NCBI GenBank assembly: GCA_033856915.1
Contig: JAWVEB010000002.1
Coordinates: forward strand, 24,672 to 88,671
DNA length: 64,000 bases
Direction: 5' to 3'
Source: Blastocatellia bacterium
GTDB lineage: Bacteria; Acidobacteriota; Blastocatellia; Pyrinomonadales; Pyrinomonadaceae
The notes under the pieces were generated by a model that saw only the letters and a list, made by a program, of their open reading frames with translations, searched no databases and had not been told where the DNA came from. Within the stretch, counting starts at the first letter, position 1; every line of letters begins with the position of its first letter. This document shows, in pieces, positions 7,690 to 55,832 of this stretch. A program made the translations under genes and the position numbers.

Positions 7690-7704
7690 AGTTCTTGAGC
7701 AGGA

Positions 7705-10427: not shown

Positions 10428-10435
10428 GACTCTTC

Positions 10436-10512: not shown

Positions 10513-10514
10513 CT

Positions 10515-25721: not shown

Positions 25722-25772
25722 TTCAGACTCACGCTACTTCCAAATCTTTTAGACAAAACTGGGGAAAACATT

Positions 25773-32682: not shown

Positions 32683-32814
32683 GTAGGCGCGTGGGGATTT
32701 GAACTCCGGACCCCTACGTGTTAACGCAGTCCCCAGTCACCTCGCATAGCACGTAATCGTTTCTGTCGCTATAGACTGGATCGAAGCGGCTAGAAAAGTC
32801 ACGTACCGCTGTAC
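32683..32814. repeat. direct repeat copy B (degenerate tRNA-Val-like 3' fragment + atcgaagcggctagaaaagtcac block)
   Basis: It reads gtaggcgcgtggggatttgaactccggacccctacgtgttaa. Compared with copy A, the T-stem is broken by 2 substitutions, there is a 1-nt deletion, and there is no CCA. Confidence 0.7.
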
Positions 32815-35176: not shown

Positions 35177-35244
35177 GGTAGGATCTATGCCAAGTAGCCT
35201 GCCGATAACGGAGGACTCAACGACGGTCTAAGAAGCGAATCACT

Positions 35245-36768: not shown

Positions 36769-36821
36769 ACTTTTGTGCACGAAACATGGTGAGCCTTCAC
36801 AAACCTCAGGAGGTGCGGACA

Positions 36822-38783: not shown

Positions 38784-38804
38784 TACTACGGAGCAATAAC
38801 GATC

Positions 38805-42502: not shown

Positions 42503-42512
42503 GATTTTACAT

Positions 42513-44588
42513 TTAACGCCTCCACCGCATTAAGAGCCCTGAATCGCCGCCGGCTTGGCTGCCGACTAGTTCCTGGGCGATGTTTCCAAAAGTTGAGGTA
42601 AGATCACCTGTTTTGACCAACAGGGCTGCCTGATCGGACGTAGCAATTTCGCGAAGGAACTTTTCATCGGCGCTGCCAAAGCCGATGGCTATGATCTCAA
42701 TTCCTGCTTGATGACATACTTTCGCCTGCTGGATCGCACTCGCTTGACAGGACCAGACTCCATCCGTGAGCACGACGAAATATCGAGATCCTTCGACACC
42801 TTTGAGTTGCTCCAGGGCATGACCAAAGGGGTGCGCAGAATTGCCGCCACCGAGTCCGACCTCCAGTGAGTCAATCGCATGGCTCAGTTTCTTTCCGTCC
42901 TGGGTAGCAAGCTGATCTATGCGCACGGAGTTAGCGAAGGAGACCAGACCAATCGATGTGTGCGATAGATCGCTGCTGCGCACAAATTCATGCATCGCCT
43001 GCTTGGCTTCCGCGAGTGGTGCGCCGCTCATGCTGCCCGAGAGATCAACGGAGAGGTATACGGCCTTATGCGCAATGGCGAGATCCTTCGGCGATTTATA
43101 GATCCAGGACATATCTTCAGGTATGGCTTCCTTGACAACCGTGAGCGAGCGACCCGTGCTCTTCTCGGTGGCCGTCACGCTGATTACGTCGCTGCGGTCG
43201 GACTCGTACGAAATATTCAGTACTGCCAGACCTTTCTTCCCGTGGGGGATGTCACCTATTACGTACTTCCCGACAAACGAACTGTTAGCCGGATCGTCAC
43301 CTTCGCCTTGGGTGACGAAGACCGCAGTGGAGTTATCCCCTTTTTCACGCGTGCGGACCTGGTAAGGACGAACTTCGCTGCATGGTATGGATCGATTCTT
43401 GGGAATCAAAATGCTGTTGAGGTAACGCTCGCCGTCAGCGCTAACCGCTATCATTCCCATGCTGTGGCTCATCACGTCGCGAATACGCGCACTTTTGAGA
43501 AAAGCCAGACCGCCTTTTGCCCTTTTATCTTCGCCATACTCAGCGGCCTGAAGGGCTGCACCCAGGGCAACGCATTCGTCCGGGTTGAGAGCGGTATTGG
43601 CAGGCTTGCAGCTCAATCGTCCGATCAATTTAAGACAGGCCGGCATCCGGGTTGAGCCGCCAACCATAAGCACGCTGCCAATCCGCGAATAGTCAAAGTT
43701 TGTCTCTTCGATTACCTTGCCGATCAGTAGTTCCGTCTGCGAGAGCAAGTCAGCGGTCAGGCTTTCAAACAAATCGCGCGTGATCTCGATCCGATCCATC
43801 TTGCCCTGGCAGTTGATCGCGACGATTGCGTTAGTGCGCGCCGATAAGCTTTTCTTCGCTTCCTCGGCGCGGATTAAGATCTCTTGGAAGGTGTATGGGT
43901 CGTCCAGCGGATTGATGCCATGGCGTTGTTCGAACTGCTCACAAAGATACTGAACGAGGCGGTCATCCCAATCCTTGCCGCCGAGATTGTGATTACCATC
44001 CGAGCCAATCACTTCAATGCCGTCGGGAGAAACCCGCACCAGCGAGATGTCAAAGGTGCCACCGCCGAGGTCGTACACCATTACCGTCTCTTCCCGCGTG
44101 TTCTGCTTCAAACCATAAGCAATGGCCGCCGCCGTGGGCTCATTGATCATTTGCACAACTTCCAGTCCGGCCAGCTCTCCGGCATCTTTTGTGGCCAGCC
44201 GCGCGGCATCCTGGAAATACGCCGGTACAGTGATAACGGCGCGCCGGATTGGTTTGTTGAGTTCCGCCTCACCATCGGTCTTAAGTTTTTTGAGCACTTC
44301 GGCTGAGAGTTCTGACGGCGTGTAGTTGCGGCCCTGATAGCTATAAACGGCCGCCGTACCCATGTCGCGCTTAAAGAATTGCGCGGTGTTCTCCTTTTCC
44401 AGAGCCATTTCCTGCTTGGCTGCCTCACCAACTATCGCACTTCCATCCGGGCGCAGTTGCACAACCGACGGCGTTATCTTGGTCCCCTCGCTGTTTGCCA
44501 GGACCTCGGGTCTGTCATAGTCGTTGATGTAAGCGATGGCCGAGTTGGTGGTGCCCAAGTCAATGCCGACGAGAACTTCTGTATTCAT
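42513..44588 (-). CDS. Hsp70-family ATPase (NBD + beta-SBD) fused to a C-terminal von Willebrand A domain
   Basis: Hsp70 motifs are VGIDLGTTNSAIA, VITVPAYF...MINEPTAAAIAYG, VMVYDLGGGTFDISLV and VLMVGGSTRMPA. The vWA MIDAS context is VYLSVDLSGSMSG...IGLVSFANS...YFVVLTDG. Confidence 0.88.
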   Translation of the reverse strand: MNTEVLVGIDLGTTNSAIAYINDYDRPEVLANSEGTKITPSVVQLRPDGSAIVGEAAKQEMALEKENTAQFFKRDMGTAAVYSYQGRNYTPSELSAEVLKKLKTDGEAELNKPIRRAVITVPAYFQDAARLATKDAGELAGLEVVQMINEPTAAAIAYGLKQNTREETVMVYDLGGGTFDISLVRVSPDGIEVIGSDGNHNLGGKDWDDRLVQYLCEQFEQRHGINPLDDPYTFQEILIRAEEAKKSLSARTNAIVAINCQGKMDRIEITRDLFESLTADLLSQTELLIGKVIEETNFDYSRIGSVLMVGGSTRMPACLKLIGRLSCKPANTALNPDECVALGAALQAAEYGEDKRAKGGLAFLKSARIRDVMSHSMGMIAVSADGERYLNSILIPKNRSIPCSEVRPYQVRTREKGDNSTAVFVTQGEGDDPANSSFVGKYVIGDIPHGKKGLAVLNISYESDRSDVISVTATEKSTGRSLTVVKEAIPEDMSWIYKSPKDLAIAHKAVYLSVDLSGSMSGAPLAEAKQAMHEFVRSSDLSHTSIGLVSFANSVRIDQLATQDGKKLSHAIDSLEVGLGGGNSAHPFGHALEQLKGVEGSRYFVVLTDGVWSCQASAIQQAKVCHQAGIEIIAIGFGSADEKFLREIATSDQAALLVKTGDLTSTFGNIAQELVGSQAGGDSGLLMRWRR

Positions 44589-44638
44589 CCAATCTCCTCA
44601 CGCGATAACCTGCTGTTGTCGTTTCACGTCATGCGGAT

Positions 44639-47188
44639 TCAACGCAATCCAAACCATTGTTTGATACGTACCAGGCCACCTGGCTCCTGGAACATGGTCC
44701 GCCACTTGATCCAACGCAGATGAGCGTTATGACTTTCCATCAGACCTTTCTCAACGGCCTCCAAATCCCTCGCGCGCCAGCTGTGCAGCGCCTTCGGAAG
44801 GACATCGATCAACAGGTAGTTAGCTATTTCGCCGCCCTGCGTCCTTTCGGTGGCGATCCAGATTCTGAACAAGCGAGCCACTTCTCGCGCTTTTCCGGAG
44901 GTATGCCTGGCCAATGAGGCCGCAATCTCCTGCCCATACCAACCTAGAAAAGGTCCGGCTCGTTGACTCCCGTAGGTCCTGATTAACAGGTGGTAGTGTG
45001 CGTCTTCATCTTTGACGTTAATGAGACGACGGGCGAGCAATCTGTAAATGGTGGTCTTGGCTTGTTCGTCCAGGCCGACGCCACGCTGCTTGAGAAACAC
45101 CAGCGCATCCTCGATGGCAACTACCGCGTCACGCCCCTCAAGCAGACCGCTGGCGAAATGACAAGCAACAACGGTTAACGACTTGTCTCCCAGAGTCTCG
45201 AAAATCTCTTTGGAGCTCAGCCGATCTTTCAACTCTTTTTGTTTCGGATCCGACAAGCCCTCGTCGGTGACGACCAGCAGGGGGACCAGGGAGCGCGTTA
45301 TACCCGGGTCCAACACTCGCAGGGCCTGCATCTGATCAAGTAGCCAGGCAGCCTCAGCTAGTGTAGGCATGCACTGCTGCCAGACTGCCACAAACGCATT
45401 GCTAATATTTTCAGCCGACAAAGTCAGGCCAAAACGCTGCGCTGCGGCCAGACATTGCTGGAAAGCCTGGAGGCGCGCATCCGGACCGGCCGATGACAGC
45501 GACGCCTGTGCAGCCATTAAACGAAAATACAGAGCCAGGTTCTTTTGCTCGGTGGCATAGGTCACAAGAGTATTGAAGAGTTCTGGCTGGCTCAGCCATT
45601 GCGCCGCGCCAGTGAACGCGTTTGGCTGACTTACTTGAATCGCGAGATACTCACCGATGCCATAAACGATATCGCGCATTCCCACTCGATGAATAAGCCC
45701 GGCCACAATCTGCCGCACTGGAACGTTGGACAGCGCCGGAGCGACAATTGTCTTGCCCAGGTGGCGCAACATCTCGTCTGGCTCATTAAGAAAGCCCAGT
45801 TTGTCACCAAGTTGCAGAAGCACGCATAAGCGTCTGGGTTCCTCCGTTTGACGAACTTGCTTCATCCAAAGCAGGCGCAGCGGTTGCAATTCGCTATCGA
45901 GCTCAGTCGACAACTGCAGCTGGGATAGCGCGGCCAATATGACTTCCGTTGCAGCACTGACGCTTACGTCCCTGATGAGCCATTCAAGATACGGACGCTC
46001 AATCAGTTCCCTGACCTCAGCATGAGTTTCCTCGTTGCCCGCGGCTAGGAAGAGATCCGTATATGCCTCAACCACCTCGCGGCTGAACCCGACCTTGCTC
46101 ATTCGATCAGAGAGTAGGGTTCGAATCTGTTCGGCCTTGAAATGAGCAAGGTGGCCGGCGCACCACTTAATAATCCGGGCGGTATCGGTGCCGGGCGTAG
46201 CGAACCCTGAAACCAGCGCATGACAGGCGAAAGCCGTATCGAGTTCCTCAAGCGGCACGTCAGCCGCAACCTGCTCAGCAAAGCCGCTGAACCCGGCAAC
46301 GCCTTCCGCATTATTGTCGCGATAGGCGGCTGCGATCTGCGCGGCAAACCCTGAGACATGCACCATTGGAGTAAAACGCTCACCCTGAAAGTCGAAGACA
46401 GAGTATTGATGTTCGATCTCATGCGGCGCGAATTTGAAGTCAGAGTCAGACGTGGTACCAACTATTAGAAACTCACTCTGGTATGGATTCTTGACGTAGG
46501 TGTTGAACGTCAATCGCAATGCGAGATGAGACGGCAGGGAGTACGAGGCGGCGGCGATCCAGAGGGTGATGGTTTCGTCGTCATCAACAATGACGATGCG
46601 CCGGCCTGTGCCGAGCGCGTCCTCAACCGCAGTCAGGAAACGCGGCAGATGTGGCAGGCGATTGTTCTCACGCAAAAACTCTTCGACTGCCTCAAGGTTG
46701 ATGACGCCTCCTGCTCTTGGTTCATCCAATGGGGGCAACGACTTTGCAGAGCTCTCGCTTGTTTCCCACGTTTCGGACCGCCAGAGTTCGACAGGGAGAA
46801 GGCCTTTGCCTTTGATATCCCTTACCGGGTCGAGAGCAACAAGTGTGTGTGTAAAGTAGTTGCCGAACCGTCCGGAGTAATCCGCGCCCAGGTACTTCGC
46901 CTGCGCCAGCAAAGCGCATCCATCGCTAAGACGCTGGTAGAGTAATGATATCGGGAATCGCTCGATCTCTTCCGCCGTGGGCCGGCTCGGCGCACTGATC
47001 GGCGGCACGTACAAACCGAGGCGTTCAATCTGCTGCAACACTGACGGGTTGATGGTGTCGCTGGCTGCATTGATCTGGAACCCCTTGCTGCCGCGCAGGC
47101 CAATCTCGCACGATGTGTAGTAGGCTTGCAAAAAGCTCATCCTCAGTTCCTCCGGCCACGCACGACGTTGAGTTTGTGGAGAATCCAC
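44639..47188 (-). CDS. large alpha-helical protein, GAP1-like (GTPase-associated protein); probable start at 47140
   Basis: The probable N-terminus is MSFLQAYYTSCEIGLRGSKGFQINAASD. I recall this YTSC..G..GFQ motif from GAP1-N type domains, from memory and unverified. The remainder is helical. The ATG at 47140 lies 2 nt after the stop of the upstream GTPase gene. Confidence 0.55.
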   Translation of the reverse strand: MDSPQTQRRAWPEELRMSFLQAYYTSCEIGLRGSKGFQINAASDTINPSVLQQIERLGLYVPPISAPSRPTAEEIERFPISLLYQRLSDGCALLAQAKYLGADYSGRFGNYFTHTLVALDPVRDIKGKGLLPVELWRSETWETSESSAKSLPPLDEPRAGGVINLEAVEEFLRENNRLPHLPRFLTAVEDALGTGRRIVIVDDDETITLWIAAASYSLPSHLALRLTFNTYVKNPYQSEFLIVGTTSDSDFKFAPHEIEHQYSVFDFQGERFTPMVHVSGFAAQIAAAYRDNNAEGVAGFSGFAEQVAADVPLEELDTAFACHALVSGFATPGTDTARIIKWCAGHLAHFKAEQIRTLLSDRMSKVGFSREVVEAYTDLFLAAGNEETHAEVRELIERPYLEWLIRDVSVSAATEVILAALSQLQLSTELDSELQPLRLLWMKQVRQTEEPRRLCVLLQLGDKLGFLNEPDEMLRHLGKTIVAPALSNVPVRQIVAGLIHRVGMRDIVYGIGEYLAIQVSQPNAFTGAAQWLSQPELFNTLVTYATEQKNLALYFRLMAAQASLSSAGPDARLQAFQQCLAAAQRFGLTLSAENISNAFVAVWQQCMPTLAEAAWLLDQMQALRVLDPGITRSLVPLLVVTDEGLSDPKQKELKDRLSSKEIFETLGDKSLTVVACHFASGLLEGRDAVVAIEDALVFLKQRGVGLDEQAKTTIYRLLARRLINVKDEDAHYHLLIRTYGSQRAGPFLGWYGQEIAASLARHTSGKAREVARLFRIWIATERTQGGEIANYLLIDVLPKALHSWRARDLEAVEKGLMESHNAHLRWIKWRTMFQEPGGLVRIKQWFGLR

Positions 47189-48318
47189 AGCAGCGGGTCT
47201 TCCACGCGAAACGGCGCGACACCCATCGGCAAGCGGCCCTGGGAATCGGGCGGCGATCCGAGCGCAGAGACTCCAAAGTAAGAGAAGGTTTCAAAGTTGT
47301 GCTGCAAGAACAGATCAAGCCCTGGCCCCACCCACTGGGCCACATGGGCGCGCATGCTGTCGTTCACCTGCTGAGCGTCGGCGGTATTGAAATAGCCGTC
47401 ATGATCGGCCGCATGGTGTACCGGCGAACCGGGTTCGAAGAGGTCATGCATCTCGTCAACTTTGGAGAAGGCAAGCGCGACCGGCGTCTGGATTTTCTCG
47501 TTATGACTCAACCCGTGGGATTGACGAATCAGTTGTGAAACGCGCCCGATGATCTCTTGTGGCTCGGTGTTTTCCGATGGCAGCGCGGTCGTAGTCTTGA
47601 GCTGGTCGCGCACTGCACGGATCTGCAGCGGGTCCAGCAGGAAGATGATCCCATGTGAGTTCGCCAAATACTTCGTCTCTGTCGACATCAGATCAAGATG
47701 CGTCAGATCTTCGCCAGCAGTGTCAAAGAAAACGAGATTACTCTTGCTCAAGCCTTTGAAAAGAGTTCTGCGCTTTTGCAGACTAAGGCGATAAACAAGC
47801 GGATATCGAACGCTGATGTCCTGGCGACCAGATTTTGTAAATGGAATCACTATCCGCTCGTCGTAGATATATCGCTTAAACTCCTTTTTGTAACGGTCGC
47901 GAGTCTGATCGTCCAGTTCGTAAAAGGAGGCGTCGAAGCTTTGGCCCACACGGTTCTTGAGTTCATTAATTAGAACGGCAATATAGTGACTCTTGCCTGC
48001 CTCTTTAGCTCCGATCAGTGCAACGGTGTAGCTGTCTGTCGTACCGAAGTTCCACGGCAACTCGTTGTGGCAATGATGGCAAACCATTTTTGTTGTTTCC
48101 ATTCCACAGTTGCATGTTGCTCGCACAGCCGGTCGGAGCCAGTTGCTCTTTGGTCTAAAAACGCGCTGCATTAATGGCGGCGGATCCACACGTTGATAAG
48201 CGCCGAAGGGTGCATCTTTTTCCAAAGCGCAACGACTCGCATTAGGATTGATACAGCGAAAGGCCACCTGATGGGGCGGATATCTCTCAAAACAGTAAGG
48301 ACAGATCAGTTGGCGCAT
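47143..48318 (-). CDS. soluble zinc-ribbon P-loop GTPase-like protein
   Basis: Zinc ribbons are CPYCFERY...FRCINPNASRC and CNCGMETTKMVCHHCHNELP. The Walker A is LIGAKEAGKSHYI, with DxxG at VFFDTAGED and an (N/S)KxD-like AFSKVDE. Confidence 0.75.
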   Translation of the reverse strand: MRQLICPYCFERYPPHQVAFRCINPNASRCALEKDAPFGAYQRVDPPPLMQRVFRPKSNWLRPAVRATCNCGMETTKMVCHHCHNELPWNFGTTDSYTVALIGAKEAGKSHYIAVLINELKNRVGQSFDASFYELDDQTRDRYKKEFKRYIYDERIVIPFTKSGRQDISVRYPLVYRLSLQKRRTLFKGLSKSNLVFFDTAGEDLTHLDLMSTETKYLANSHGIIFLLDPLQIRAVRDQLKTTTALPSENTEPQEIIGRVSQLIRQSHGLSHNEKIQTPVALAFSKVDEMHDLFEPGSPVHHAADHDGYFNTADAQQVNDSMRAHVAQWVGPGLDLFLQHNFETFSYFGVSALGSPPDSQGRLPMGVAPFRVEDPLLWILHKLNVVRGRRN

Positions 48319-48319
48319 C

Positions 48320-51300
48320 CTAAGTGATCCTTAGTTGTTGAGGCGGCGGATCGATCAAACGAAAGGTGTGCGCCTGAGGCCCATCGCGAAAGAAGGCGCG
48401 CAAGTAACAAGGACGACGCACGGCGTCCAGAGTGAACTCATGTGAAACCGGAGTTCCACTGTGCAAGCTTAGGTCACTGATAGTAGCGAGCAGAATGCCG
48501 TTATTGTTAGGTAGCGGCTGAATGTCGCCGCGCTTGGCAATTACTACAATTTCGGGGAGGTGCTTAGCCTCTCTCTCCGCGTTAAAGGTGATAGTTATAC
48601 GGTTGCGATGTAACCAGTTACCGCGCGAAATCGAGTAGGAAATAGAAAGAGGTAAACTCGTGCGCAGTAAATCGTGCGCTCCTGGACTGATACCCGAGCT
48701 GTAGATGTCTTCGCCGTCGACCTGGGTAACCGCAAAGACGACTACGTAATAAGGAGCTTTCGCCGGATCATTGATACGAAAACCACCCTCGCCATCATAC
48801 TCTCCCCGCGAGATGCGGTGCGTAGTCGCGCGAGCGTCCAGTGGATCATGGGGATACGCATCATGCCGCCAGGCCACAACGGCCAATCGAGAGTCCTCGG
48901 GCCAGCGCCATTGCAACTGCAAGTACCGACCGAAATCCACCGCTTTAAGGTGTGATACGTCCTGAGTGGTCAGATAGCGGCGAGCATTGCCAATCACAGC
49001 CACATCCCCAGCTATAGTCACTGGCACATAGAACGCAGGCTGAGTCGAGGGAGCAAAATCAACCGCAAGGTTATTCAATTCAATGCGCAGCGGTACGCCC
49101 AGAGCGGCCAGTTTTGCGGCCGGAATCTGCTCACCGATCCGCCACTCTGGCTTTTGAAACGTGCGGTAGAAACTGACCGCGCCATGCTTAGGTGGAACCC
49201 ATGAGACATGCACCACGCCCTCTTCAAGAGTGATCTGAAACTCGTCGATTGCCGGTGGGGGCTGCTCAGGCCTCACGCTCCGGACAATGCCGGATGTAAA
49301 GACCGGCTGTCCCTTCGCGTCTCGATACTCAACCACCACCCGGTAGTAATAGAGATGACCGTTGCTCACTCCCCGGTCCAGGAGATTGTGTGGCCCGGTG
49401 GGCGCGATTTCTAGACCATCGCCGGCTCTGCTCGGTGGCCTGCTTTCCTGCCTGAAGACACGCACGCGCCCTTCAGGCACATCAAATTCCCAGGAACAGT
49501 TGACCAGGCCGCCGCTCGCTTCGACGCTGAGGTTGCTTACTTCTTGCATCACCAGCATGCCGGCGGAAGAAACTCCCTTGGAAAGCACACCTGTACGTTC
49601 AGTAAACACTGTGTAAAAGACATGGCTGGCGGGACGCGCCCTTTGATCAAGGCATGAGGTGGTAGCGACCCTCGCAACCACGTCGCCGTCGGCAAGCGAC
49701 AACGCCGCTCGTCCTTCACGACGAACGATGATGTACTCGCTTCCCCCTACCGCCGGACTGGGCTGCCACTCGACCTGCACCTTTCCCTCGTGCGATTGAG
49801 CGAGCACGTTCGCGGCCGGTTCCGGTGGACAGCGTTGAAGCCCTCTTTGTGCTTCTTCAGCGTCAGCGACAATCTGAAGGGCGTCCTGGTAGGCAAAAAC
49901 TGCTTCGTTCAACCTTCCCTTTTGTTCACACTCTCGGGCCTTCGTCAAGAGCCCCTTACACAGTTTCAGCTTTTCCTCTACTTCGCCTTTCAGTTGCGGG
50001 AGATCTTTGCCGTCAAGCCCTAGATAGTTCGGTGCGACCGTGGCCAGAGAGGCGAGCTTGGTTCGTGCGGCAAAGAACCGGCGAGCCGCCACGGTTTCAT
50101 CAATTTCTCGCCGCAGGCCGCGGACCTGTTCGACGGCAACTTCAATTCGGTCGAGCAGCTTAGCCACATCACCCGAGCGTTCCCACAACCTCTCGGCTTC
50201 GCGTGCCGTCTCATGCGATTCTTCGATCCGACCTTCACCAAGTTCCAGTTGGGCCTGGCGTACGAGCAGGCGAACGCGCGGCAAGTCGCCGGTTTTGAAC
50301 CCACATTTGGCGCAGGCAGGATCACTGGCCGCCGCGCGCGAAGAGCACCTGGGACAGGTGGTCCATAGCTCCGCCCCGCAGGTTGTACAGCTCTGCGCGT
50401 TTGTCTTAAGGGGCACCAGGGCCAGGCATTTCGCGCAACGAACTGTCTCTTCGTCGGTGGACCATTCGACAGCAGCGCCGTACTCTCGCGCCAGAGTCAG
50501 AATGTATTCGGCAGCGGTCTCCTGCGCCAGACCGTGACTCAGGGCCACACCGAGCAACTGCTTGAACTCAGCTTTCGTGATCAGTTTGTCGCCCGCCGCC
50601 AATCGCACTTCCGGTCGCAGTACTTCAACAGCTTCATAGGCCAGAGCGGCGTCATACTTCGCGGCATCGCCGTCAACCATGTGCGTCTTAATCAGACCCA
50701 GCAGCAGATTGGCGTTGGTTAAGGTAAAGTCGCTTTTCTTTTGCCGCCACTCCAACTCGCGTTTGCGAAGACTTTCGGTCAGTCGGTCTTTCGAACAGCC
50801 CCGGTCGACTCCCAGGAACTCATATAGGTCGCGCTTCTGTAAGACATTGAGCCCGCTTCTGATCTGTTCGCGGGTCCCCTTGGGCAGTCCTTCGTTTGTC
50901 GGCAGTCGTACCGAAGATTCCCTGATCGGCACGCGCACCCGCGATCGGATCTCCTGTTCCGTCAAACTCTCGCACCGGTGTTGGGCCAATAGCACACTAA
51001 GTTCACCTGGGTCGATATAGCCTTTCGAGGCGACCATTCGGATTGACCTATCCAGTGCAGCGAAACGCTTCTCTCGGGATTTCTTACGCTCTGCCTCGAC
51101 AAGTTCGCGTACCGCTTTGCGAGCTTCCGAATCCAGCAGATTACGCCTGGCATCCTGCTGTTCTTTTGGCGCCAGCAAGACTGACAACACTTTGCCAAAG
51201 CGCGGATTCTGTTTACTTTTGTTCCAGTAGGCGTGGACAGTCGTGATCGCGGTCTCGATCTCTTTCGGGTCTGAGACTGTGATCGGCAGATCATAGCGCT

Positions 51301-51394
51301 CAAAGCAGTCGGGTAACCGGCTCTCACTCTTGAAAGCGTCCACGGCCGGGCTCAGCACCCGTTTGATATAATCAGCTTCGTCGAATTTCCACAT
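48320..51394 (-). CDS. J-like / double zinc-ribbon protein with helical (TPR-like) middle and C-terminal beta-rich (FN3/Ig-like) repeats; paralogue of 51610..53349
   Basis: The first ~375 aa are homologous to the next gene, and aa 1-67 are identical. The J-helix-like segment is RDLYEFLGVDRGCSKDRLTESLRKRELEWRQKK, with no HPD. The zinc ribbons are VRCAKCLALV...CTTCGAELWTTCPRCSS...CAKCGF. The C-terminal ~500 aa are rich in short beta-strand patterns. Confidence 0.7.
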   Translation of the reverse strand: MWKFDEADYIKRVLSPAVDAFKSESRLPDCFERYDLPITVSDPKEIETAITTVHAYWNKSKQNPRFGKVLSVLLAPKEQQDARRNLLDSEARKAVRELVEAERKKSREKRFAALDRSIRMVASKGYIDPGELSVLLAQHRCESLTEQEIRSRVRVPIRESSVRLPTNEGLPKGTREQIRSGLNVLQKRDLYEFLGVDRGCSKDRLTESLRKRELEWRQKKSDFTLTNANLLLGLIKTHMVDGDAAKYDAALAYEAVEVLRPEVRLAAGDKLITKAEFKQLLGVALSHGLAQETAAEYILTLAREYGAAVEWSTDEETVRCAKCLALVPLKTNAQSCTTCGAELWTTCPRCSSRAAASDPACAKCGFKTGDLPRVRLLVRQAQLELGEGRIEESHETAREAERLWERSGDVAKLLDRIEVAVEQVRGLRREIDETVAARRFFAARTKLASLATVAPNYLGLDGKDLPQLKGEVEEKLKLCKGLLTKARECEQKGRLNEAVFAYQDALQIVADAEEAQRGLQRCPPEPAANVLAQSHEGKVQVEWQPSPAVGGSEYIIVRREGRAALSLADGDVVARVATTSCLDQRARPASHVFYTVFTERTGVLSKGVSSAGMLVMQEVSNLSVEASGGLVNCSWEFDVPEGRVRVFRQESRPPSRAGDGLEIAPTGPHNLLDRGVSNGHLYYYRVVVEYRDAKGQPVFTSGIVRSVRPEQPPPAIDEFQITLEEGVVHVSWVPPKHGAVSFYRTFQKPEWRIGEQIPAAKLAALGVPLRIELNNLAVDFAPSTQPAFYVPVTIAGDVAVIGNARRYLTTQDVSHLKAVDFGRYLQLQWRWPEDSRLAVVAWRHDAYPHDPLDARATTHRISRGEYDGEGGFRINDPAKAPYYVVVFAVTQVDGEDIYSSGISPGAHDLLRTSLPLSISYSISRGNWLHRNRITITFNAEREAKHLPEIVVIAKRGDIQPLPNNNGILLATISDLSLHSGTPVSHEFTLDAVRRPCYLRAFFRDGPQAHTFRLIDPPPQQLRIT
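50270..51394. repeat. paralogous 5' module, copy 1 (matches 52225..53349)
   Basis: The ~315 nt at the 5' ends are near-identical between copies (1 aa change in the first ~105 aa). There are further identical patches, e.g. gcttgaactcagctttcgtgatcagtttgtcgcccgccgccaatcgcacttccggtcgcag. Overall identity is ~80% aa over ~375 aa. Confidence 0.85.
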
Positions 51395-51609
51395 CGCCTA
51401 GATTCCGGCAGAGTACTCATGAGACGTTTGACCCGCCTGACTGTTGCATAACCGGCAGGTAGACACCCTGTTGATTGGCCTTTTCCGTGACAAACCTAGT
51501 TTCAGTCATTTACATACGCACCGGCGTGTTGTTGTGAATCAGTTAGACGAATCACCTATCACCGTGATCTGAGTTCATGGCTACAATGCCCAATCCGTTG
51601 GAGCAGACA

Positions 51610-53349
51610 TTAGTGACCTAGCGATTTCGCGGACTGGTGTGACACAAAGGAATGCGATTCGGACCAAGCCGCCTCCTTACTTCTCAACGCCCAAAGTGTA
51701 AAGGTTCCCTTAAAGCCCTTCATCTCCACGTCGTCATGCCGCACCCAATTGAGGCTCCGATGGTGCTTCGCCCAATAATCATCTACGTGTTCTTTCGCTT
51801 GGTTACTCAACCAAATTTCACTCGCTTCTTTGATGGCGCCGAGCACCCGAGCGGCAAAGTTCACAGTTCCGCCAAAGACGTCATTATCTTCAACCTGCAT
51901 CGGACCGATATGAATGCCCGCGCGAATTTGCACGTGCGAGTGACCAGTCTCCGCTTGCAACGCCATGCCGTAGTCCAACGCCTTATCCACAGACTTAAAC
52001 GTCACCATGAAGCTGTCGCCGATGGTTTTGACTTCCCGCCCGCTGTATTCATTAATTAGTTTGCGGCTTTGCCCGAAGTGCGCGCGCCGGACTTCGTTCA
52101 TGCTCTCTCCCTTAAGTTCTTCACCGAGAGATGTCGAGCCGACGACATCCGTGAAGATAATCGCCAACACGACGCGATCGCCCCCGGCCCAGGCAGAAAA
52201 ACTCGGACCGCTTATTCCGCTGCGCGCCGACTCCACGAACATTCCCATTTTGAATCCACATTTGGAGCAGGCAGGATCGTCTACCGGCATGCGTGCAGAG
52301 CACTTTGGACAGTTGGCCCATAGACCTTCTCCGCACGTTGTGCAACTCTCCGCTTTGGTCTGGAGGCGTACCTGAGCAAGGCAGTTCGCACAATGAACTA
52401 CATCTTCGTCGATAAACCATTCGACGACAGCGTCGTACTCTCGCGCCAGGGTCAGAATGTATTCCGCGGCAGTTCCCCTCGCCAGACCGTGGCTCAGTGC
52501 AACACGCAGTAACTGCTTGAACTCAGCTTTCGTGATCAGTTTGTCGCCCGCCGCCAATCGCACTTCCGGTCGCAGAACCTCGAGAGTCTCGTACGCGAGC
52601 GCGGCATCGTACTTCGCGGGATCGCCGTCAATCAGGTACGCCTTAATGAGACCTAGCAGCAGATTCGCCGCAGTCAAGTTAAAGTCGCTTTTCTTTTGCC
52701 GCCACTCCAACGCACGTTTGCGAAGACTCTCAGTCAGTCGCTCTTTCGAACCACCTCGCTCGACTCCGAGGAAATCGTACAGGTCGCGCTTCTGCAGAAC
52801 GGCGAGCGCGCTCCTGATCTGTTCCCGCGTCCTCTTGGGCAGCCCCTCAGAAATCGGAGAGCGCAAGGAAGATTCCCGGATCGGAACGCGCACCCGCGAC
52901 TTGATCTCATCTTCCGTCAAACTCTCGCGCTGGAAACGAGCCACTAGGTCATTGAACTCACCGGGACCGATATAGCCCTTCGAAGCGATCACTTCGATCG
53001 ACCTGTCCAGAGCCGCGACTCGCTTTTCACGGATCTTCTTACGCTCCGCCTCGACAAGTTCGCGTACCGCTTTGCGAGCTTCCGAATCCAGCAGATTACG
53101 CCGGGCATCCTGCTGTTCTTTTGGCGCCAGCAAGACTGACAACAACTTGCCAAAGCGCGGATTCTGTTTACTTTTATTCCAGTAGGCGTGGACAGTCGTG
53201 ATCGCGGTCTCGATCTCCTTCGGGTCGGAGACTGTGATCGGCAGATCATAACGCTCAAAGCAGTCCGGTAACCGGCTCTCACTCTTGAAAGCGTCCACGG
53301 CCGGGCTCAGCACCCGTTTGATATAATCAGCTTCGTCGAATTTCCACAT
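51610..53349 (-). CDS. J-like / double zinc-ribbon protein fused to a class III nucleotidyl (adenylate/guanylate-type) cyclase domain
   Basis: It has the same N-terminal module as 48320..51394 (DLYDFLGVERGGSKERLTESLRKRALEWRQKK; CANCLAQV...CTTCGEGLWANCPKCSA...CSKCGF). Cyclase motifs are VLAIIFTDVVGSTSL, REVKTIGDSFMVTF, IRAGIHIGP, FGGTVNFAARV and VEMKGFKGTFTLWAL. Confidence 0.85.
   Translation of the reverse strand: MWKFDEADYIKRVLSPAVDAFKSESRLPDCFERYDLPITVSDPKEIETAITTVHAYWNKSKQNPRFGKLLSVLLAPKEQQDARRNLLDSEARKAVRELVEAERKKIREKRVAALDRSIEVIASKGYIGPGEFNDLVARFQRESLTEDEIKSRVRVPIRESSLRSPISEGLPKRTREQIRSALAVLQKRDLYDFLGVERGGSKERLTESLRKRALEWRQKKSDFNLTAANLLLGLIKAYLIDGDPAKYDAALAYETLEVLRPEVRLAAGDKLITKAEFKQLLRVALSHGLARGTAAEYILTLAREYDAVVEWFIDEDVVHCANCLAQVRLQTKAESCTTCGEGLWANCPKCSARMPVDDPACSKCGFKMGMFVESARSGISGPSFSAWAGGDRVVLAIIFTDVVGSTSLGEELKGESMNEVRRAHFGQSRKLINEYSGREVKTIGDSFMVTFKSVDKALDYGMALQAETGHSHVQIRAGIHIGPMQVEDNDVFGGTVNFAARVLGAIKEASEIWLSNQAKEHVDDYWAKHHRSLNWVRHDDVEMKGFKGTFTLWALRSKEAAWSESHSFVSHQSAKSLGH
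52225..53349. repeat. paralogous 5' module, copy 2 (matches 50270..51394)
   Basis: See copy 1. Confidence 0.85.
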
Positions 53350-53373
53350 CGCCCGATGCCCTTGCGGCGCAAG

Positions 53374-55056
53374 CTACGAGACGGTCTGTTTCAACAGCAT
53401 TCCCTTGCTGGCTTCGATTTCCTGTTGGCTCATAACGCCTTCAACCTTTACTTCCAAATTCAAATCTCTACCTGAAGAGGGCTCCACCGCTGTAACACTC
53501 AGCGTCCCGTCCTCCGCGAGGCGAAAAGTGACGTGAATCGGCGAACCCGCAGGCAGGTTGGCTGGCAAAGGCGCGATCTCGCCCTCGCTGATCAACCTGT
53601 TGTCTTCAGGTGACGGAGATTGCGTCTGGCCGGCCTGCTCCATGACGCGCACCGAGACCTGCTGTTGGTTTGGCCTGAGCGTGCCAAATCCAGTCTCGGT
53701 AACTTCGACGGGAACCGGTGTGTTGTTCTGGATTAGATATGCCACATACTCCTTTTCACCGTCCTCAGCATCAACCGCAACTACGCCGAAACCCTTGGAA
53801 CAAACGTTGATGATTTTTCGCGTAGCCATGTCGGCGAGATCTTTGCTCGGCAGACGAAACTTCCCGCCGGCCGTAGCAGTTGCTTTCTTTGCAGCCTCCG
53901 CGATAGTTCCCTGATCGATCTCCGCCAGATCAACCTCCTCGATCGTCGTTCCCGTCTCGTTGGCAATGATCTCCCTGATCATTTCGCCCGCCATGATCTT
54001 CTGGCCCATTAAGGCCGCGCCCTTCGCCACTGACAAATCGGGTTCGAAAAGATTAGTCTCGATCCCAAACTCCTCTTGCATTCTCCGGGCAACAGCGGGC
54101 ATTTTACTTAGGCCTCCGACCAGCAGGATCTGATCGATTTTGCCGATGCCTTTTCCCTTGGCTTCTTCCAATACATGTCGCGTCAGATCAATCGTCTGTT
54201 GCAAGAGATCGGCGGTCAACTCTTCCAGTTTCTCTCGCGTTACCTCGACACGCGCCCGCTTGCCGTTGTGGGAAACCATCAGCGGATATTTCTCTTTCGC
54301 GGACAATCCCTTCTTGATCTCTTCTGCCGATTTGGCAAGCTCTTGCATCGAATAGGGGTCGTCGAGAGGATTGCTCTCACCGGCGTTCTCAGTCATGAAC
54401 TGTTCCGCCAAATATTCGATCAGCCGATCGTCCCAATCTTTGCCCCCCAGATTGTGATTGCCGCCTGTAACCACGACGCGAATATCTCCTTGTTCCATGG
54501 CGATCACCGTGATGTCAAAAGTGCCGCCGCCCAAATCGTAAACGAGCACAACCTCATCACCTTTTGTTTTGTCGTCGCCGTAGCAGATTGCCGCCGCCGT
54601 TGGCTCATTGAGAATATTGACGACGTTCAGGTCAGCCAGGATCCCGGCATTCTTGGTCGCTTCGCGTTCGTTGATCCCGAAGTATGCGGGGCAAGTGATC
54701 ACCACATCTTTGATCTGGTCGCCGACCGTCTGCGAGGCGTCGCTGGCCAGCTTGCGCAAAATGTAGGAAGAGATTTCCTCAGGCCGATAGCTTTTGCCGT
54801 CTATCTCGCGGCTGAACGTCGCGTCACCCATATTGCGCTTCACGAATTCCACGACCCGCCCGGGATCAACCTTACTGGCATTCTTTGCTTCCTTGCCCAC
54901 GACAATGTTGTCCGCACTTTCAAAATGAACGACCGAAGGCGTGGTCAGGTCTCCCTCGAAGTTTGGCACCACGACGGGCTTGCCCCACTCGTCCACATAG
55001 GAGATACATGAATAGGTTGTGCCAAGATCAATTCCGTAGATACGACTCGCGGTCAT
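53374..55056 (-). CDS. non-canonical short Hsp70-family chaperone (NBD + beta-SBD, no helical lid or EEVD tail)
   Basis: Motifs are YGIDLGTTYSCISY, VITCPAYF...ILNEPTAAAICYG, VLVYDLGGGTFDITV and ILLVGGLSKMPAV. The SBD-like part is IHVTFRLAEDGTLSVTAVE. Its ATG overlaps the stop of the GrpE-like gene (ATGA). Confidence 0.9.
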   Translation of the reverse strand: MTASRIYGIDLGTTYSCISYVDEWGKPVVVPNFEGDLTTPSVVHFESADNIVVGKEAKNASKVDPGRVVEFVKRNMGDATFSREIDGKSYRPEEISSYILRKLASDASQTVGDQIKDVVITCPAYFGINEREATKNAGILADLNVVNILNEPTAAAICYGDDKTKGDEVVLVYDLGGGTFDITVIAMEQGDIRVVVTGGNHNLGGKDWDDRLIEYLAEQFMTENAGESNPLDDPYSMQELAKSAEEIKKGLSAKEKYPLMVSHNGKRARVEVTREKLEELTADLLQQTIDLTRHVLEEAKGKGIGKIDQILLVGGLSKMPAVARRMQEEFGIETNLFEPDLSVAKGAALMGQKIMAGEMIREIIANETGTTIEEVDLAEIDQGTIAEAAKKATATAGGKFRLPSKDLADMATRKIINVCSKGFGVVAVDAEDGEKEYVAYLIQNNTPVPVEVTETGFGTLRPNQQQVSVRVMEQAGQTQSPSPEDNRLISEGEIAPLPANLPAGSPIHVTFRLAEDGTLSVTAVEPSSGRDLNLEVKVEGVMSQQEIEASKGMLLKQTVS

Positions 55057-55832
55057 TTCCCTGTTTCCTCCGTTGGTTGATCGGCACTCACGGCCTTTTC
55101 GTTGTCTGTTGCCTCATCCAGGGCGGCGCCCCGTGTGAAGCGAAACACCTCAGCCTCTAAAATGCGAATGATCTTTGTGTCAGTGCGGAAGCCTACGCGC
55201 ACGACACGCGCAATTGCCCTATCAAAGCCAGCGTTCTGCGTGGGAACGACGCCAAGAGCCTTCTGTTCTTTGGAATTGAATGGTGAGCCCTCTAGAGCTT
55301 CGTACCGCTCAACTCCGTGCCGGTAGAGGACATCCTCGACGGCATCGCAGAAAGACTTGAAATCACGTGAGATCTCTTTCATGTCTGCGTCGGCGCGCTC
55401 TTCAAATCTTTTCCCGGTCTGCTTGAGGTCGTCGTAGAGCCTTATGAGATCACGAAATAGCGGAGCGACGGCTTGCGAAATCTCACCGGCACGGAGCTGC
55501 TGATTCTCCTGGTGCAAACGGTCAATTATGCGTTCGCGATCGCTGGAAAGAACGTTAGCTTCCTCGAGAAGGGCGGCTAGCTGCTCGACACGTTGACTCA
55601 AAATCTGAATACCCTCGTTATGCTGGTCCGTGGCAGCCTCAACCTGTTGGTTGGGGACGACCTCTGCTGTAACAACTTGTTCTACTGAAGGGACGTCAGT
55701 GGGTTCTTCTGACACAACTGAATTCGTCGGCGTAATCTCGGAAGCGGGCGGCTGCTCGCCTTCCGGTTCGTTCTGTTCTGCGAGACCCGTGCTTGTTTCA
55801 TCTACACTCATGAAAGTTCCCTCTACAGTCAA
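55053..55832 (-). CDS. GrpE-like nucleotide exchange factor (probable start ATG at 55811)
   Basis: It has an acidic N-terminus and a long coiled coil (VEQLAALLEEANVLSSDRERIIDRLHQENQQL). The C-terminal beta domain is GVERYEALEGSPFNSKEQKALGVVPT...IARVVRVGFRTDTKIIRILEAEV. GAGGGA precedes the ATG at 55811. Confidence 0.7.
   Translation of the reverse strand: MTVEGTFMSVDETSTGLAEQNEPEGEQPPASEITPTNSVVSEEPTDVPSVEQVVTAEVVPNQQVEAATDQHNEGIQILSQRVEQLAALLEEANVLSSDRERIIDRLHQENQQLRAGEISQAVAPLFRDLIRLYDDLKQTGKRFEERADADMKEISRDFKSFCDAVEDVLYRHGVERYEALEGSPFNSKEQKALGVVPTQNAGFDRAIARVVRVGFRTDTKIIRILEAEVFRFTRGAALDEATDNEKAVSADQPTEETGK

What the first reader, a model, noticed from the sequence alone, without database searches (positions are those of the whole stretch)
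48320..53349. Tandem paralogues share a near-identical N-terminal J-like/zinc-ribbon module but carry different C-terminal output domains, with gene-conversion-like patches
Seen: the two adjacent genes encode identical residues 1-67, differ at only one position in the first ~105 aa, and are ~80% identical to about aa 375. At the DNA level the 5' ~315 nt and internal stretches are almost identical, e.g. the 60-nt run beginning gcttgaactcagctttcgtgatcag in both copies. After the double zinc ribbon they diverge completely, one into a class III cyclase and the other into ~650 aa of helical plus beta-sandwich-like sequence. Inference: a shared docking module, possibly for the adjacent Hsp70, is kept homogeneous by recombination while the sensor or output ends are swapped. 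That modular pattern is typical of conflict systems.
Basis: seen in the sequence. Interest (0 to 1): 0.7.

Follow-up and report, generated by a model that had tools for sequence, protein, structure and literature searches.

The report
Duplicated chaperone adaptor fused to cyclase
Two neighbouring genes in a predicted bacterial immune operon share one 369-residue adaptor; one carries the usual fibronectin-type repeats, the other a borrowed adenylate cyclase, and recombination has re-homogenised their first ~315 bases.

Summary
Genes A (51610-53349, minus strand) and B (48320-51394, minus strand) align without gaps for 1107 nt. Nt 1-315 are 96.8% identical (dS 0.14). Nt 316-1104 are 79% identical (dS 0.67). 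Homology stops at codon 369, just after the double zinc ribbon.

The heterogeneity holds at silent sites: third-position differences are 8/105 versus 93/263 (p = 1e-8). Family-wide conservation does not explain it, so recombination is the best reading.

The operon is a known, computationally described system: the GAP1-N2 DO-GTPase system with Hsp70 and GrpE (Kaur et al. 2020). Gene B is its canonical component, made of a J-like adaptor and FNIII repeats.

Gene A is an extra copy. None of the 18 other distinct related loci examined has an adaptor-cyclase gene. Its cyclase is a portable cassette, 58-70% identical to more than 200 proteins with unrelated N-termini, spliced in directly after the zinc ribbon. 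The A-B spacer holds a decayed fragment of the Hsp70 substrate-binding domain. This points to a tandem duplication spanning the 3' end of Hsp70 and the 5' end of gene B.

Two other loci have comparable tandem adaptor copies, and one of them shows its own homogenised tract. The J-like domain lacks the HPD motif, so docking to Hsp70 is inferred, not shown. Verdict: a new variant of a known kind, of moderate interest.

The parts
55053..55832 (-). GrpE-like nucleotide-exchange factor; first gene of the operon
   Evidence: PF01025 GrpE, E 6e-14. It is conserved at this position in related loci.
53374..55056 (-). Hsp70 (560 aa) with nucleotide-binding and substrate-binding domains, immediately upstream of gene A
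   Evidence: PF00012, E 5e-104. An Hsp70 gene sits directly upstream of the adaptor gene in most related loci, including L023, where no GTPase or GAP1 was found downstream.
51610..53349 (-). Gene A: adaptor (aa 1-369) plus class III adenylate-cyclase cassette (aa 370-~556) plus a 23-aa tail
   Evidence: It is identical to database protein P0001 from a Blastocatellia metagenome-assembled genome, on a 164,993-nt contig.
52243..53349 (-). Shared adaptor module in gene A (codons 1-369): N-terminal helical domain, J-like domain (aa ~187-255, window 52585-52791) and double zinc ribbon (aa 319-367, window 52249-52395)
   Evidence: 82% aa identity to gene B. The AlphaFold2 model of the gene B copy has pLDDT 86.7. 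J-domain matches. DZR Pfam hit.
53035..53353 (-). Homogenised (gene-conversion) tract, gene A copy: nt -4 to +315
   Evidence: 96.8% identity and dS 0.14, versus dS 0.67 downstream.
51080..51398 (-). Homogenised (gene-conversion) tract, gene B copy: nt -4 to +315
52511..52575 (-). 65-nt exact-identity patch, gene A copy (gene nt 775-839); possible second short conversion tract
   Evidence: Codons 259-279 have no third-position differences, permutation p = 0.006.
50556..50620 (-). 65-nt exact-identity patch, gene B copy
51682..52242 (-). Portable class III cyclase cassette, including its linker 'MFVESARSGISGPSFSAWAGG'
   Evidence: 58-70% identical to more than 200 proteins with unrelated N-termini. 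Homology starts exactly at M370/F371. Conserved blocks aligned to Ma1120.
51435..51629 (-). Pseudogenised fragment of the Hsp70 substrate-binding domain (equivalent to Hsp70 aa 408-476). It overlaps the last 6 codons of gene A out of frame and fills most of the A-B spacer
   Evidence: blastx: 48% aa identity, 4 in-frame stops, E 3e-15. Local nucleotide alignment score 96 versus 22.8 +/- 2.7 in shuffles, 66% nt identity. It also matches the Hsp70 3' ends of L002-L005 and L014.
48320..51394 (-). Gene B: the canonical FNIII-repeat component, made of the adaptor (aa 1-369, window 50288-51394), a helical/TPR-like region (aa ~370-525) and tandem FNIII-like domains (aa ~527-1024)
   Evidence: Orthologues of about 1020 aa sit at this position in the related loci. 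About 1000 aa is the dominant length among the 150 best family representatives.
47143..48318 (-). DO-GTPase with N-terminal zinc ribbons
   Evidence: PF19993 DO-GTPase2, E 1.9e-7. CxxC pairs are visible in the translation.
44639..47188 (-). GAP1 (GAP1-N2, GAP1-M and GAP1-C domains)
   Evidence: PF20013 E 7.6e-34, PF20014 E 3.8e-20, PF20052 E 1.7e-16.
42513..44588 (-). Second Hsp70, fused to a C-terminal vWA domain
   Evidence: PF00012 E 9e-118, PF00092 E 1e-17.
40412..42502 (-). Second DO-GTPase paralogue, with a hydrophobic (apparently transmembrane) N-terminus, zinc ribbons and a C-terminal bacterial SH3 domain
   Evidence: PF19993 E 1.5e-9, PF19975 E 6.8e-7; SH3_3 E 1.3e-5 (25.8 bits, just below Pfam's 27-bit cut-off). 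The hydrophobic N-terminus is visible in the translation.

Best explanation
What it is. The eight-gene minus-strand operon (40412-55832) is a GAP1-N2-type DO-GTPase conflict system of the Hsp70/GrpE theme. Gene B is its standard component. It has a 369-aa adaptor followed by a helical region and FNIII repeats. The adaptor consists of an N-terminal helical domain, an HPD-less J-like domain, a helical domain and a double zinc ribbon. Gene A is a lineage-specific extra copy of the adaptor alone.

How it arose (inferred from anatomy). A tandem duplication spanned the 3' part of the Hsp70 gene and the 5' 1.1 kb of gene B. This placed a second adaptor copy next to a copy of the Hsp70 substrate-binding domain. 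A portable class III adenylate-cyclase cassette was then joined directly after the zinc ribbon. The Hsp70 piece decayed into the present A-B spacer. Later, gene conversion between the two adaptors re-homogenised nt -4 to +315, and perhaps a 65-nt patch.

Current state (shown). Both copies are intact. Divergence between them shows purifying selection, with dN/dS about 0.2.

How it probably works (inferred, not shown). Both proteins use the same adaptor to engage the same partner, most likely the adjacent Hsp70. Class III cyclases are active as dimers. Assembly of the system would therefore bring gene A molecules together and switch on cAMP synthesis as an added second-messenger output, alongside whatever the FNIII component does.
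For: System identity:
- Pfam hits to GAP1-N2/M/C, DO-GTPase1/2, Hsp70, GrpE and vWA match the description in Kaur et al. 2020 (PMC7159879).
- FNIII repeats in gene B are confirmed by structure prediction and fold search.

Gene A is the extra copy:
- Four Acidobacteriota/Pyrinomonadaceae loci are colinear with the window but have a single adaptor gene. So do the loci of the closest orthologues, P0004 and P0005.
- Among the 150 best family representatives, only P0001 (gene A itself) has a cyclase. Two cassette-centred searches found no other adaptor-cyclase fusion.

Duplication mechanism:
- The Hsp70 substrate-binding-domain fossil lies in the spacer.
- L014 has the intact analogue, adaptor aa 1-~311 fused to Hsp70 aa ~411-560, with the same Hsp70 breakpoint within about 5 aa.
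- L022 is a third locus with tandem adaptor copies.

Cassette capture:
- Homology to more than 200 cyclases begins exactly where homology to gene B ends.

Gene conversion:
- dS is 0.14 versus 0.67. Third-position differences give p = 1e-8, with a breakpoint near codon 100.
- The segment is not more conserved family-wide.
- In L014 a central tract (dS 0.35-0.6) is flanked by silent-site-saturated sequence, an independent replicate of the mosaic.

Both copies functional:
- dN/dS is about 0.2. All family-invariant residues are retained in both copies. The cyclase's conserved blocks are retained in the alignment to Ma1120.

Link to Hsp70:
- Adjacency to Hsp70 is conserved, even where no GTPase or GAP1 was found (L023).
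- There are J-domain fold and profile matches at aa ~186-250.
Against: - The J-like domain lacks the HPD motif in 152 of 152 family members. Canonical stimulation of the Hsp70 ATPase is therefore unlikely, and binding to Hsp70 is unproven.
- J-domain matches are individually weak (Foldseek E about 0.6 with probability up to 0.98; HMM E 0.002-0.2).
- No cNMP receptor or effector was identified in the operon.
- The whole system has no experimental characterisation that I could find, and no component gave a meaningful PADLOC match (only three marginal hits, E 2e-4 to 9e-4).
- Gene A is unique to one metagenome-assembled genome, so selection on it is judged only from one pairwise comparison.
- No close relative carrying both genes is available. 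Conversion is therefore inferred from one pair, not from phylogenetic incongruence.
- The order of events (cassette capture versus decay of the Hsp70 piece) is not resolved.
Confidence: 0.6

Rival explanations
1. The mosaic did not arise by conversion after a local duplication. Most of gene A's adaptor (nt 316-1106) was imported from a diverged homologous locus, either another strain or a second system copy. Only the 5' end is native, joined by homologous recombination.
For: The pattern is a sharp step near codon 100-105, as a single crossover would give. Kaur et al. report that organisms can carry up to three paralogous systems.
Against: The Hsp70 fossil downstream of gene A points to a local tandem duplication. 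Composition (GC3) of the gene A adaptor and cassette matches the neighbouring genes. A and B are each other's closest relatives in every segment. No second adaptor copy exists elsewhere in the 64-kb window.
Confidence: 0.15
2. Gene A is a functionless by-product of a duplication-prone region and is on its way to decay. The identical tract is a neutral conversion event with no bearing on docking.
For: The adaptor-cyclase gene is unique to this genome among all loci and proteins examined. The same region carries a decayed Hsp70 fragment. In L014 the extra copy has a degenerate J-like region.
Against: The 579-aa ORF is intact. dN/dS is about 0.2 over the diverged 789 nt at dS 0.67, which is long enough for a neutral copy to collect stops, as the adjacent fossil did with 4 stops in 64 codons. 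All invariant adaptor residues and the cyclase's conserved blocks are retained.
Confidence: 0.12
3. The tandem arrangement is a metagenome assembly artefact, a chimeric join at the shared 83-nt exact repeat.
For: The sequence comes from a metagenome-assembled genome. Exact repeats of 83 nt can mislead short-read assemblers. Reads are not available here.
Against: A unique spacer with its Hsp70 fossil connects the 3' end of gene A to the start of gene B, so the assembly path requires a true tandem. Both ORFs are intact with ordered junctions. Analogous tandem adaptor copies occur in two independent metagenomes, L014 and L022.
Confidence: 0.04
4. No recombination occurred. The 5' tract is near-identical because of unusually strong selection on the N-terminal 105 residues or on the mRNA 5' region.
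For: The N-terminal domain is 99% identical at the protein level.
Against: Silent sites are also homogenised: dS 0.14 versus 0.67, with third-position p = 1e-8. Across 14 orthologues this segment is no more conserved than the others (0.37 versus 0.32-0.37). A constraint on mRNA would not be expected to span 315 nt.
Confidence: 0.03

Closest known systems
GAP1-N2-type GTPase-centric (DO-GTPase) conflict system, Hsp70/GrpE theme (Kaur, Burroughs, Iyer and Aravind, eLife 2020, PMC7159879)
   Same: The gene content matches: two DO-GTPase paralogues (one with zinc ribbons, one with a hydrophobic N-terminus and SH3), GAP1 with N2/M/C domains, an FNIII-repeat protein carrying a DnaJ-like/TPR N-terminal part, Hsp70, GrpE and a second Hsp70.
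   Different: The lineage is an acidobacterium (Blastocatellia); the paper lists actinobacteria and firmicutes as predominant for this theme. The second Hsp70 is fused to vWA. An extra adaptor-only paralogue carries a cNMP cyclase. In the sections and text passages of the paper that I read, cyclases are mentioned for the VMAP ternary systems and System 4, not for the GTPase-centric systems (which showed 12 of 18 matching passages). The J-like domain has no HPD motif.
J-domain co-chaperones (DnaJ/Hsp40) and HPD-less J-like proteins such as Pam16/Tim16
   Same: A roughly 70-aa helical domain matches J-domains by fold (Foldseek probability up to 0.98, TM-score normalised to the target 0.45-0.67) and by profile (E 0.002-0.2). 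It is encoded next to an Hsp70 and a GrpE.
   Different: The HPD tripeptide is replaced by (W)R-P/Q-K in all 152 members. The domain is embedded between other helical domains and a double zinc ribbon. No G/F region or DnaJ-type C-terminal domains are present.
cNMP-cyclase effector or signalling domains of conflict systems (VMAP ternary systems in Kaur 2020; Pycsar PycC)
   Same: A class III cyclase domain is attached as a swappable module to a conflict-system scaffold. There is a weak PycC match (E 2e-4).
   Different: The specificity residues are the Lys/Asp pair typical of adenylate cyclases. No adjacent cNMP-binding effector was found. The scaffold is the Hsp70-associated adaptor, not VMAP/vWA.
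Constant-N-terminus, variable-C-terminus cassette swapping and concerted evolution of tandem paralogues (for example Rhs/CDI polymorphic toxins; from general knowledge)
   Same: A conserved N-terminal module is homogenised by recombination, C-terminal modules are exchanged at a precise junction, and a displaced fragment is left downstream.
   Different: The swapped ends here are a signalling enzyme and binding repeats, not toxins. There are only two copies. The downstream fossil is part of the neighbouring Hsp70 gene, not an orphan C-terminal cassette.

Membership tests
GAP1-N2 GTPase-centric system (Kaur 2020) | GAP1 protein with GAP1-N2, GAP1-M and GAP1-C domains | tested here: met
   PF20013 E 7.6e-34, PF20014 E 3.8e-20, PF20052 E 1.7e-16, all above the curated cut-offs.
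GAP1-N2 GTPase-centric system (Kaur 2020) | One or two DO-GTPases. One has N-terminal zinc ribbons. If there are two, the other has transmembrane helices and often a peptidoglycan-binding domain | tested here: met
   ORF 47143-48318: DO-GTPase2, 31.4 bits against a cut-off of 27. ORF 40412-42502: DO-GTPase2 at 38.3 bits and DO-GTPase1 at 29.3 bits, a hydrophobic N-terminus, and SH3_3 at 25.8 bits (just below the 27-bit cut-off).
GAP1-N2 GTPase-centric system (Kaur 2020) | A protein with FNIII repeats, which in the Hsp70 theme is fused to DnaJ or TPR | tested here: met
   Model of the gene B C-terminus with pLDDT 91.1. Foldseek matches fibronectin FN7-10 at E 1.7e-14. Weak TPR hits. J-like domain.
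GAP1-N2 GTPase-centric system (Kaur 2020) | Hsp70 plus GrpE, and in a subset of systems a second Hsp70 | tested here: met
   The second Hsp70 here is full-length and fused to vWA, which differs from the 'Hsp70 domain only' variant described in the paper.
GAP1-N2 GTPase-centric system (Kaur 2020) | Role in biological conflict or defence | not testable with these tools
   This is a prediction of the paper only. No component gave a meaningful PADLOC match (three marginal hits, E 2e-4 to 9e-4). The neighbourhood contains other conflict-type genes.
J-domain (DnaJ, PF00226) | Four-helix J fold | tested here: inconclusive
   Many J-domain matches fall at aa ~186-250, but each is weak: Foldseek E about 0.6-3 with probability 0.6-0.98; profile versus PDB E 0.002-0.2; Pfam DnaJ E 0.075.
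J-domain (DnaJ, PF00226) | HPD tripeptide between helices II and III, required to stimulate the Hsp70 ATPase | tested here: not met
   The loop reads EWRQKKSD in both A and B, and HPD is absent in all 152 aligned family members. From the alignment, the commonest version of the loop is EWRPKPxD.
Class III nucleotidyl cyclase (PF00211) | Domain match above the curated threshold | tested here: met
   60.6 bits against a cut-off of 21.9. Match to the PDB entry for Ma1120 at E 4e-16.
Class III nucleotidyl cyclase (PF00211) | Catalytic residues: two metal-binding Asp, a Lys/Asp substrate pair, and transition-state Asn and Arg | tested here: met
   FTD, KTIGD, NDVFG and NFAAR align with the same residues of Ma1120. 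Assignment of roles to these residues rests on general knowledge of class III cyclases.
Gene conversion between tandem paralogues | Tracts of significantly lower silent divergence than the rest of the alignment | tested here: met
   dS 0.14 versus 0.67. Third-position differences p = 1.2e-8. Longest-run permutation p = 5e-5.
Gene conversion between tandem paralogues | Phylogenetic incongruence between tract and flanks, using orthologous pairs from related genomes | not testable with these tools
   No relative carrying both genes was found. The nearest orthologues are only 46-55% identical in the adaptor.
Pycsar (PycC cyclase plus cNMP-activated effector) | PycC-type cyclase with an adjacent effector that has a cNMP-binding domain | tested here: not met
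   The PycC match is marginal (E 2e-4, 18.7 bits, no separate domain hit). No cNMP-binding domain appeared among the Pfam hits for operon genes or neighbours.

The most novel reading that the evidence does not exclude
The adaptor (N-terminal domain plus HPD-less J-like domain plus zinc ribbon) is a general plug that lets an immune-type Hsp70 recruit interchangeable outputs. In this genome, Hsp70-driven assembly directly gates an adenylate cyclase, so a chaperone-sensed event is converted into a cAMP alarm within a GTPase-centred conflict system. Recurrent gene conversion of the first ~100-195 codons, seen in two independent lineages, keeps both outputs matched to one fast-evolving docking partner.
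Probability: 0.25. Interest if true: 0.7.

Novelty: new variant of a known kind. Interest (0 to 1): 0.45.

Why it matters
The GAP1-N2/DO-GTPase/Hsp70 systems are widespread. The adaptor family alone has 939 representative clusters at 50% identity. Even so, they are known only from comparative genomics.

This locus is a natural experiment. The same adaptor carries either the standard FNIII array or a catalytically competent-looking cyclase. This marks the 369-aa N-terminal part as the unit that connects to the rest of the machinery, and it supplies an enzymatic read-out (cAMP) for probing when the system fires.

The Hsp70 fossil and the parallel cases in L014 and L022 show how such variants arise. 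The Hsp70/adaptor gene boundary is prone to tandem duplication. Later conversion is concentrated on the adaptor's N-terminal domain, which makes that domain the prime candidate for the conserved interaction surface.

Tried and rejected
- The word-indexed protein search with the adaptor returned only gene A and one partial homologue, and did not return gene B itself. The exhaustive profile search was needed to see the family.
- The 16-sequence alignment was too divergent for locus retrieval. A 5-sequence alignment worked.
- I looked for a canonical J-domain. Pfam gives only E 0.075, and the HPD motif is absent family-wide. I therefore do not file it as DnaJ.
- I looked for other adaptor-cyclase fusions with two cassette-centred searches and found none.
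- I looked for promoter-like or terminator-like sites in the A-B spacer and found none.
- PADLOC gave no meaningful hits.
- I tested whether gene A's Hsp70 fossil shares derived features with the L014 chimera, which would indicate common origin. It does not share L014X's deletions, so common versus independent origin stays open.
- I compared silent divergence of the fossil (third-position p = 0.58, n = 67) with the adaptor (0.35). This hints that the duplication is older than the adaptor's apparent age, but the sample is too small for a conclusion.
- Composition gave no sign of recent foreign origin for the cassette.

Full report
**Observation**

ORF listing shows two adjacent minus-strand genes: A (51610-53349, 579 aa) and B (48320-51394, 1024 aa). 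An ungapped comparison of their first 1250 nt shows three zones.
- Nt 1-315 are 96.8% identical, with an 83-nt exact run.
- Nt 316-1104 are 79% identical, with a 65-nt exact run at nt 775-839.
- From about nt 1107 onwards, matches fall to chance level.

Identity starts 4 nt before the ATG, and the upstream sequences are unrelated. At the protein level, residues 1-68 are identical. The only difference in the first 105 residues is at position 69. Identity is 82% to G369.

**Is it more than chance or selection?**

Nei-Gojobori estimates give dS 0.14 and dN 0.004 for codons 1-105, against dS 0.67 and dN 0.147 for codons 106-368. Third-position differences are 8/105 versus 93/263 (Fisher p = 1.2e-8), and the maximum chi-square breakpoint is near codon 100. 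Codons 259-279 have no third-position difference (permutation p = 0.006).

In an alignment with 14 orthologues, the first 105 residues are not more conserved than the other segments (0.37 versus 0.32-0.37 mean pairwise identity). Protein-level constraint therefore does not explain the tract. Recombination, meaning gene conversion or an equivalent crossover, does.

**What the genes are**

Pfam identifies the operon as follows:
- GrpE (55053-55832).
- Hsp70 (53374-55056).
- Gene A, with a double zinc ribbon and a class III cyclase.
- Gene B, with a double zinc ribbon.
- A zinc-ribbon DO-GTPase (47143-48318).
- GAP1 with N2/M/C domains (44639-47188).
- Hsp70-vWA (42513-44588).
- A second DO-GTPase with a hydrophobic N-terminus and an SH3-like C-terminus (40412-42502).

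This is the 'GAP1-N2-type GTPase-centric system', second theme, of Kaur et al. 2020. [quoted passage not shown]

An AlphaFold2 model of gene B residues 371-1024 (pLDDT 91.1) has about 150 aa of helices followed by tandem beta-sandwich domains, about five by inspection. Foldseek matches fibronectin FN7-10 at E 1.7e-14. Gene B is therefore the canonical FNIII component.

The source is a Blastocatellia (Acidobacteriota) metagenome-assembled genome. Gene A equals database protein P0001 on a 164,993-nt contig.

**The shared module**

An AlphaFold2 model of gene B residues 1-370 has pLDDT 86.7 and pTM 0.51. It is all-helical up to residue 304 and ends in a zinc-ribbon region.

Foldseek returns many J-domains for a 62-76-residue stretch. 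Probabilities reach 0.98, TM-scores normalised to the target are 0.45-0.67, and rmsd is 2.4-3.8 Å. E-values are poor for this multi-domain query. A family profile searched against PDB sequences hits J-domains at positions ~186-250, with E 0.002-0.2. Pfam DnaJ scores E 0.075.

The HPD motif is absent. The loop reads EWRQKKSD in A and B, and no HPD occurs in any of 152 aligned members. From the alignment, the commonest version of the loop is EWRPKPxD. I therefore call the domain J-like and do not file it as a J-domain.

**Family survey**

An exhaustive profile search finds 939 representative clusters with E ≤ 1e-3, and 616 with E ≤ 1e-10. Among the best 150, about 1000 aa is the dominant length, and 126 have a C-terminus homologous to gene B's. 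Only P0001 has a cyclase.

Rare alternative C-termini exist: Sel1+YARHG (P0017), TPR+LprI (P0028), TM2 (P0034) and Lcl_C (P0146). In L023 the Sel1+YARHG version sits next to an Hsp70, with no GTPase or GAP1 in the 4.5 kb downstream. Hsp70 plus adaptor thus appears to be the conserved pair.

**Gene A is an insertion into a conserved operon**

Four Acidobacteriota/Pyrinomonadaceae loci (L002-L005) are colinear with the window. Their order is GrpE, Hsp70, adaptor-FNIII, GTPase, GAP1, Hsp70-vWA, second GTPase, with one adaptor gene each. Seven more distant genome loci also have one adaptor gene. The loci of the closest orthologues, P0004 and P0005, also have one. Only the window has the adaptor-cyclase gene between Hsp70 and the FNIII gene.

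**Origin of the cyclase**

Gene A residues 370-~556 are 58-70% identical to more than 200 metagenomic proteins. In the ten of these that I read, homology starts at the linker 'F(E/D)xFVxSA(R/K)GE...SF..WAG', and their N-termini are unrelated to each other. Those N-termini include WD40 ends, helical regions, and a zinc-ribbon region. That zinc-ribbon region is homologous (32% identity, E 2e-15) to residues 804-933 of the window's own neighbour ORF at 59183-62500.

In gene A the cassette begins at M370/F371, exactly where homology to gene B ends (G369). The conserved catalytic blocks align with the Ma1120 adenylate cyclase. GC3 matches that of neighbouring genes, so the capture is not recent.

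**A fossil explains the duplication**

The last 6 codons of gene A plus most of the 215-nt A-B spacer (window 51435-51629, minus strand) are a decayed copy of Hsp70 residues 408-476.
- blastx gives 48% identity with 4 in-frame stops, E 3e-15.
- Nucleotide identity is 66%. The local alignment score is 96, against 22.8 +/- 2.7 in shuffles.
- The fragment also matches the Hsp70 3' ends of related loci.

This is what a tandem duplication running from about Hsp70 codon 408 into the adaptor gene would leave behind.

Metagenome locus L014 shows the intact analogue. Between its Hsp70 and its adaptor-FNIII gene lies a 458-aa gene (P0018). It encodes adaptor residues 1-~311 fused to Hsp70 residues ~411-560.

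L022 has an Hsp70 substrate-binding domain fused to adaptor residues 2-310, followed by the start of a further adaptor copy. Counting the window, tandem adaptor duplication is therefore seen in 3 of 19 distinct loci examined.

The within-genome copies are each other's closest relatives. I cannot decide whether the events are independent or share an old origin later masked by concerted evolution.

**An independent replicate of the mosaic**

In L014 the repeat unit has a central tract covering the last 44 Hsp70 codons (dS 0.35) and adaptor codons 1-195 (dS 0.5-0.6). It is flanked on both sides by sequence saturated at silent sites (pS about 0.75).

Later homogenisation of an older duplication, again centred on the adaptor's N-terminal part, is the simplest reading.

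**Function**

The following points are shown:
- Both copies are intact.
- dN/dS is about 0.2 over the diverged 789 nt.
- All family-invariant residues, including the eight zinc-ribbon cysteines, are present in both copies.
- The cyclase's conserved catalytic blocks are present.

The following points are inferred:
- The adaptor engages the adjacent Hsp70 or another shared partner.
- Gene A adds a cAMP output whose activation would follow assembly-induced dimerisation, as class III cyclases act as dimers (general knowledge).

Several points count against a confident functional claim. There is no HPD motif, no identified cNMP receptor and no experimental work on this system, and PADLOC gave only three marginal hits.

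**Rivals**

- Import of a diverged allele plus one crossover: cannot be excluded.
- A decaying by-product: unlikely given the intact ORF, while the neighbouring fossil collected 4 stops in 64 codons.
- An assembly artefact: unlikely, because a unique spacer links A to B and similar tandems occur in other metagenomes. It is untestable without reads.
- Selection without recombination: rejected by the silent-site data.

**Verdict**

The thing is a new variant, an extra adaptor-cyclase paralogue with a conversion tract, of a known but uncharacterised system. Interest is moderate. It points to the adaptor, and especially its first ~105 residues, as the connector of the system, and it offers an enzymatic handle for experiments.

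Noticed in passing
window 59183-62500 (+): An 1105-aa protein with seven WD40 repeats, a Ras/Roc-type GTPase, a zinc ribbon and a ~150-aa C-terminal domain. Its residues 804-933 are homologous (32% identity, E 2e-15) to the N-terminal region of many proteins that carry the same cyclase cassette as gene A. The cassette therefore sits behind a zinc ribbon in at least two unrelated scaffolds.
   Followed up: partly
window 57472-59163 (+): A 563-aa AAA_21/AAA_15 ATPase (families annotated as AbiEii-type toxin and related), directly upstream of the WD40-GTPase gene. It is possibly another defence gene pair.
   Followed up: no
window 21530-24685 (-): A 1051-aa TPR-CHAT (caspase-like) protein. Together with the GAP1 system and the WD40-GTPase, it suggests that window 21-63 kb is a conflict or defence island.
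   Followed up: no
window 24720-40331 (both strands): Nine large ORFs, including one of 1240 aa at 28854-32576, were scanned. They have no Pfam hits at E ≤ 1e-5, except an RNase_H_2 domain in ORF 35245-36768. This is an uncharacterised block next to the GAP1 system.
   Followed up: no
window 6520-12353 (-): Ordinary housekeeping context: KdpD sensor domain, a P-type ATPase (KdpB-like) and KdpA. Nearby are a histidine kinase (18993-20240) and an OmpL-like porin (12657-13991).
   Followed up: no
L014 4838-6244 (= P0018): An intact chimeric gene encoding adaptor aa 1-~311 fused to the Hsp70 substrate-binding domain (aa ~411-560). Its J-like region is strongly diverged (32% identity to the neighbouring copy). 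Its last ~44 codons are nearly identical to the 3' end of the Hsp70 gene.
   Followed up: yes
L022 464-1961 (P0031): A single ORF fuses an Hsp70 substrate-binding-domain copy (aa 411-547) to adaptor aa 2-310. It is followed within about 40 nt by the start of another adaptor copy at the contig end. This is a third kind of rearrangement at the same gene boundary.
   Followed up: partly
L023 1273-4059 (P0017): The adaptor is fused to Sel1 repeats and a YARHG domain, next to an Hsp70 that is split into two ORFs. No GTPase or GAP1 lies in the 4.5 kb downstream. The Hsp70-adaptor pair may therefore occur outside GAP1-N2 systems.
   Followed up: partly
database searches: The word-indexed protein search never returned gene B, and in two searches did not return gene A (P0001) although the queries were parts of it. 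Absence from those lists is therefore weak evidence of absence.
   Followed up: no
window 47143-47188: As listed, the GAP1 ORF (GTG start at 47188) overlaps the end of the DO-GTPase gene by 46 nt. Gene B's stop lies 1 nt from the DO-GTPase ATG. The tight spacing suggests translational coupling along the operon, and the true GAP1 start may be further downstream.
   Followed up: no
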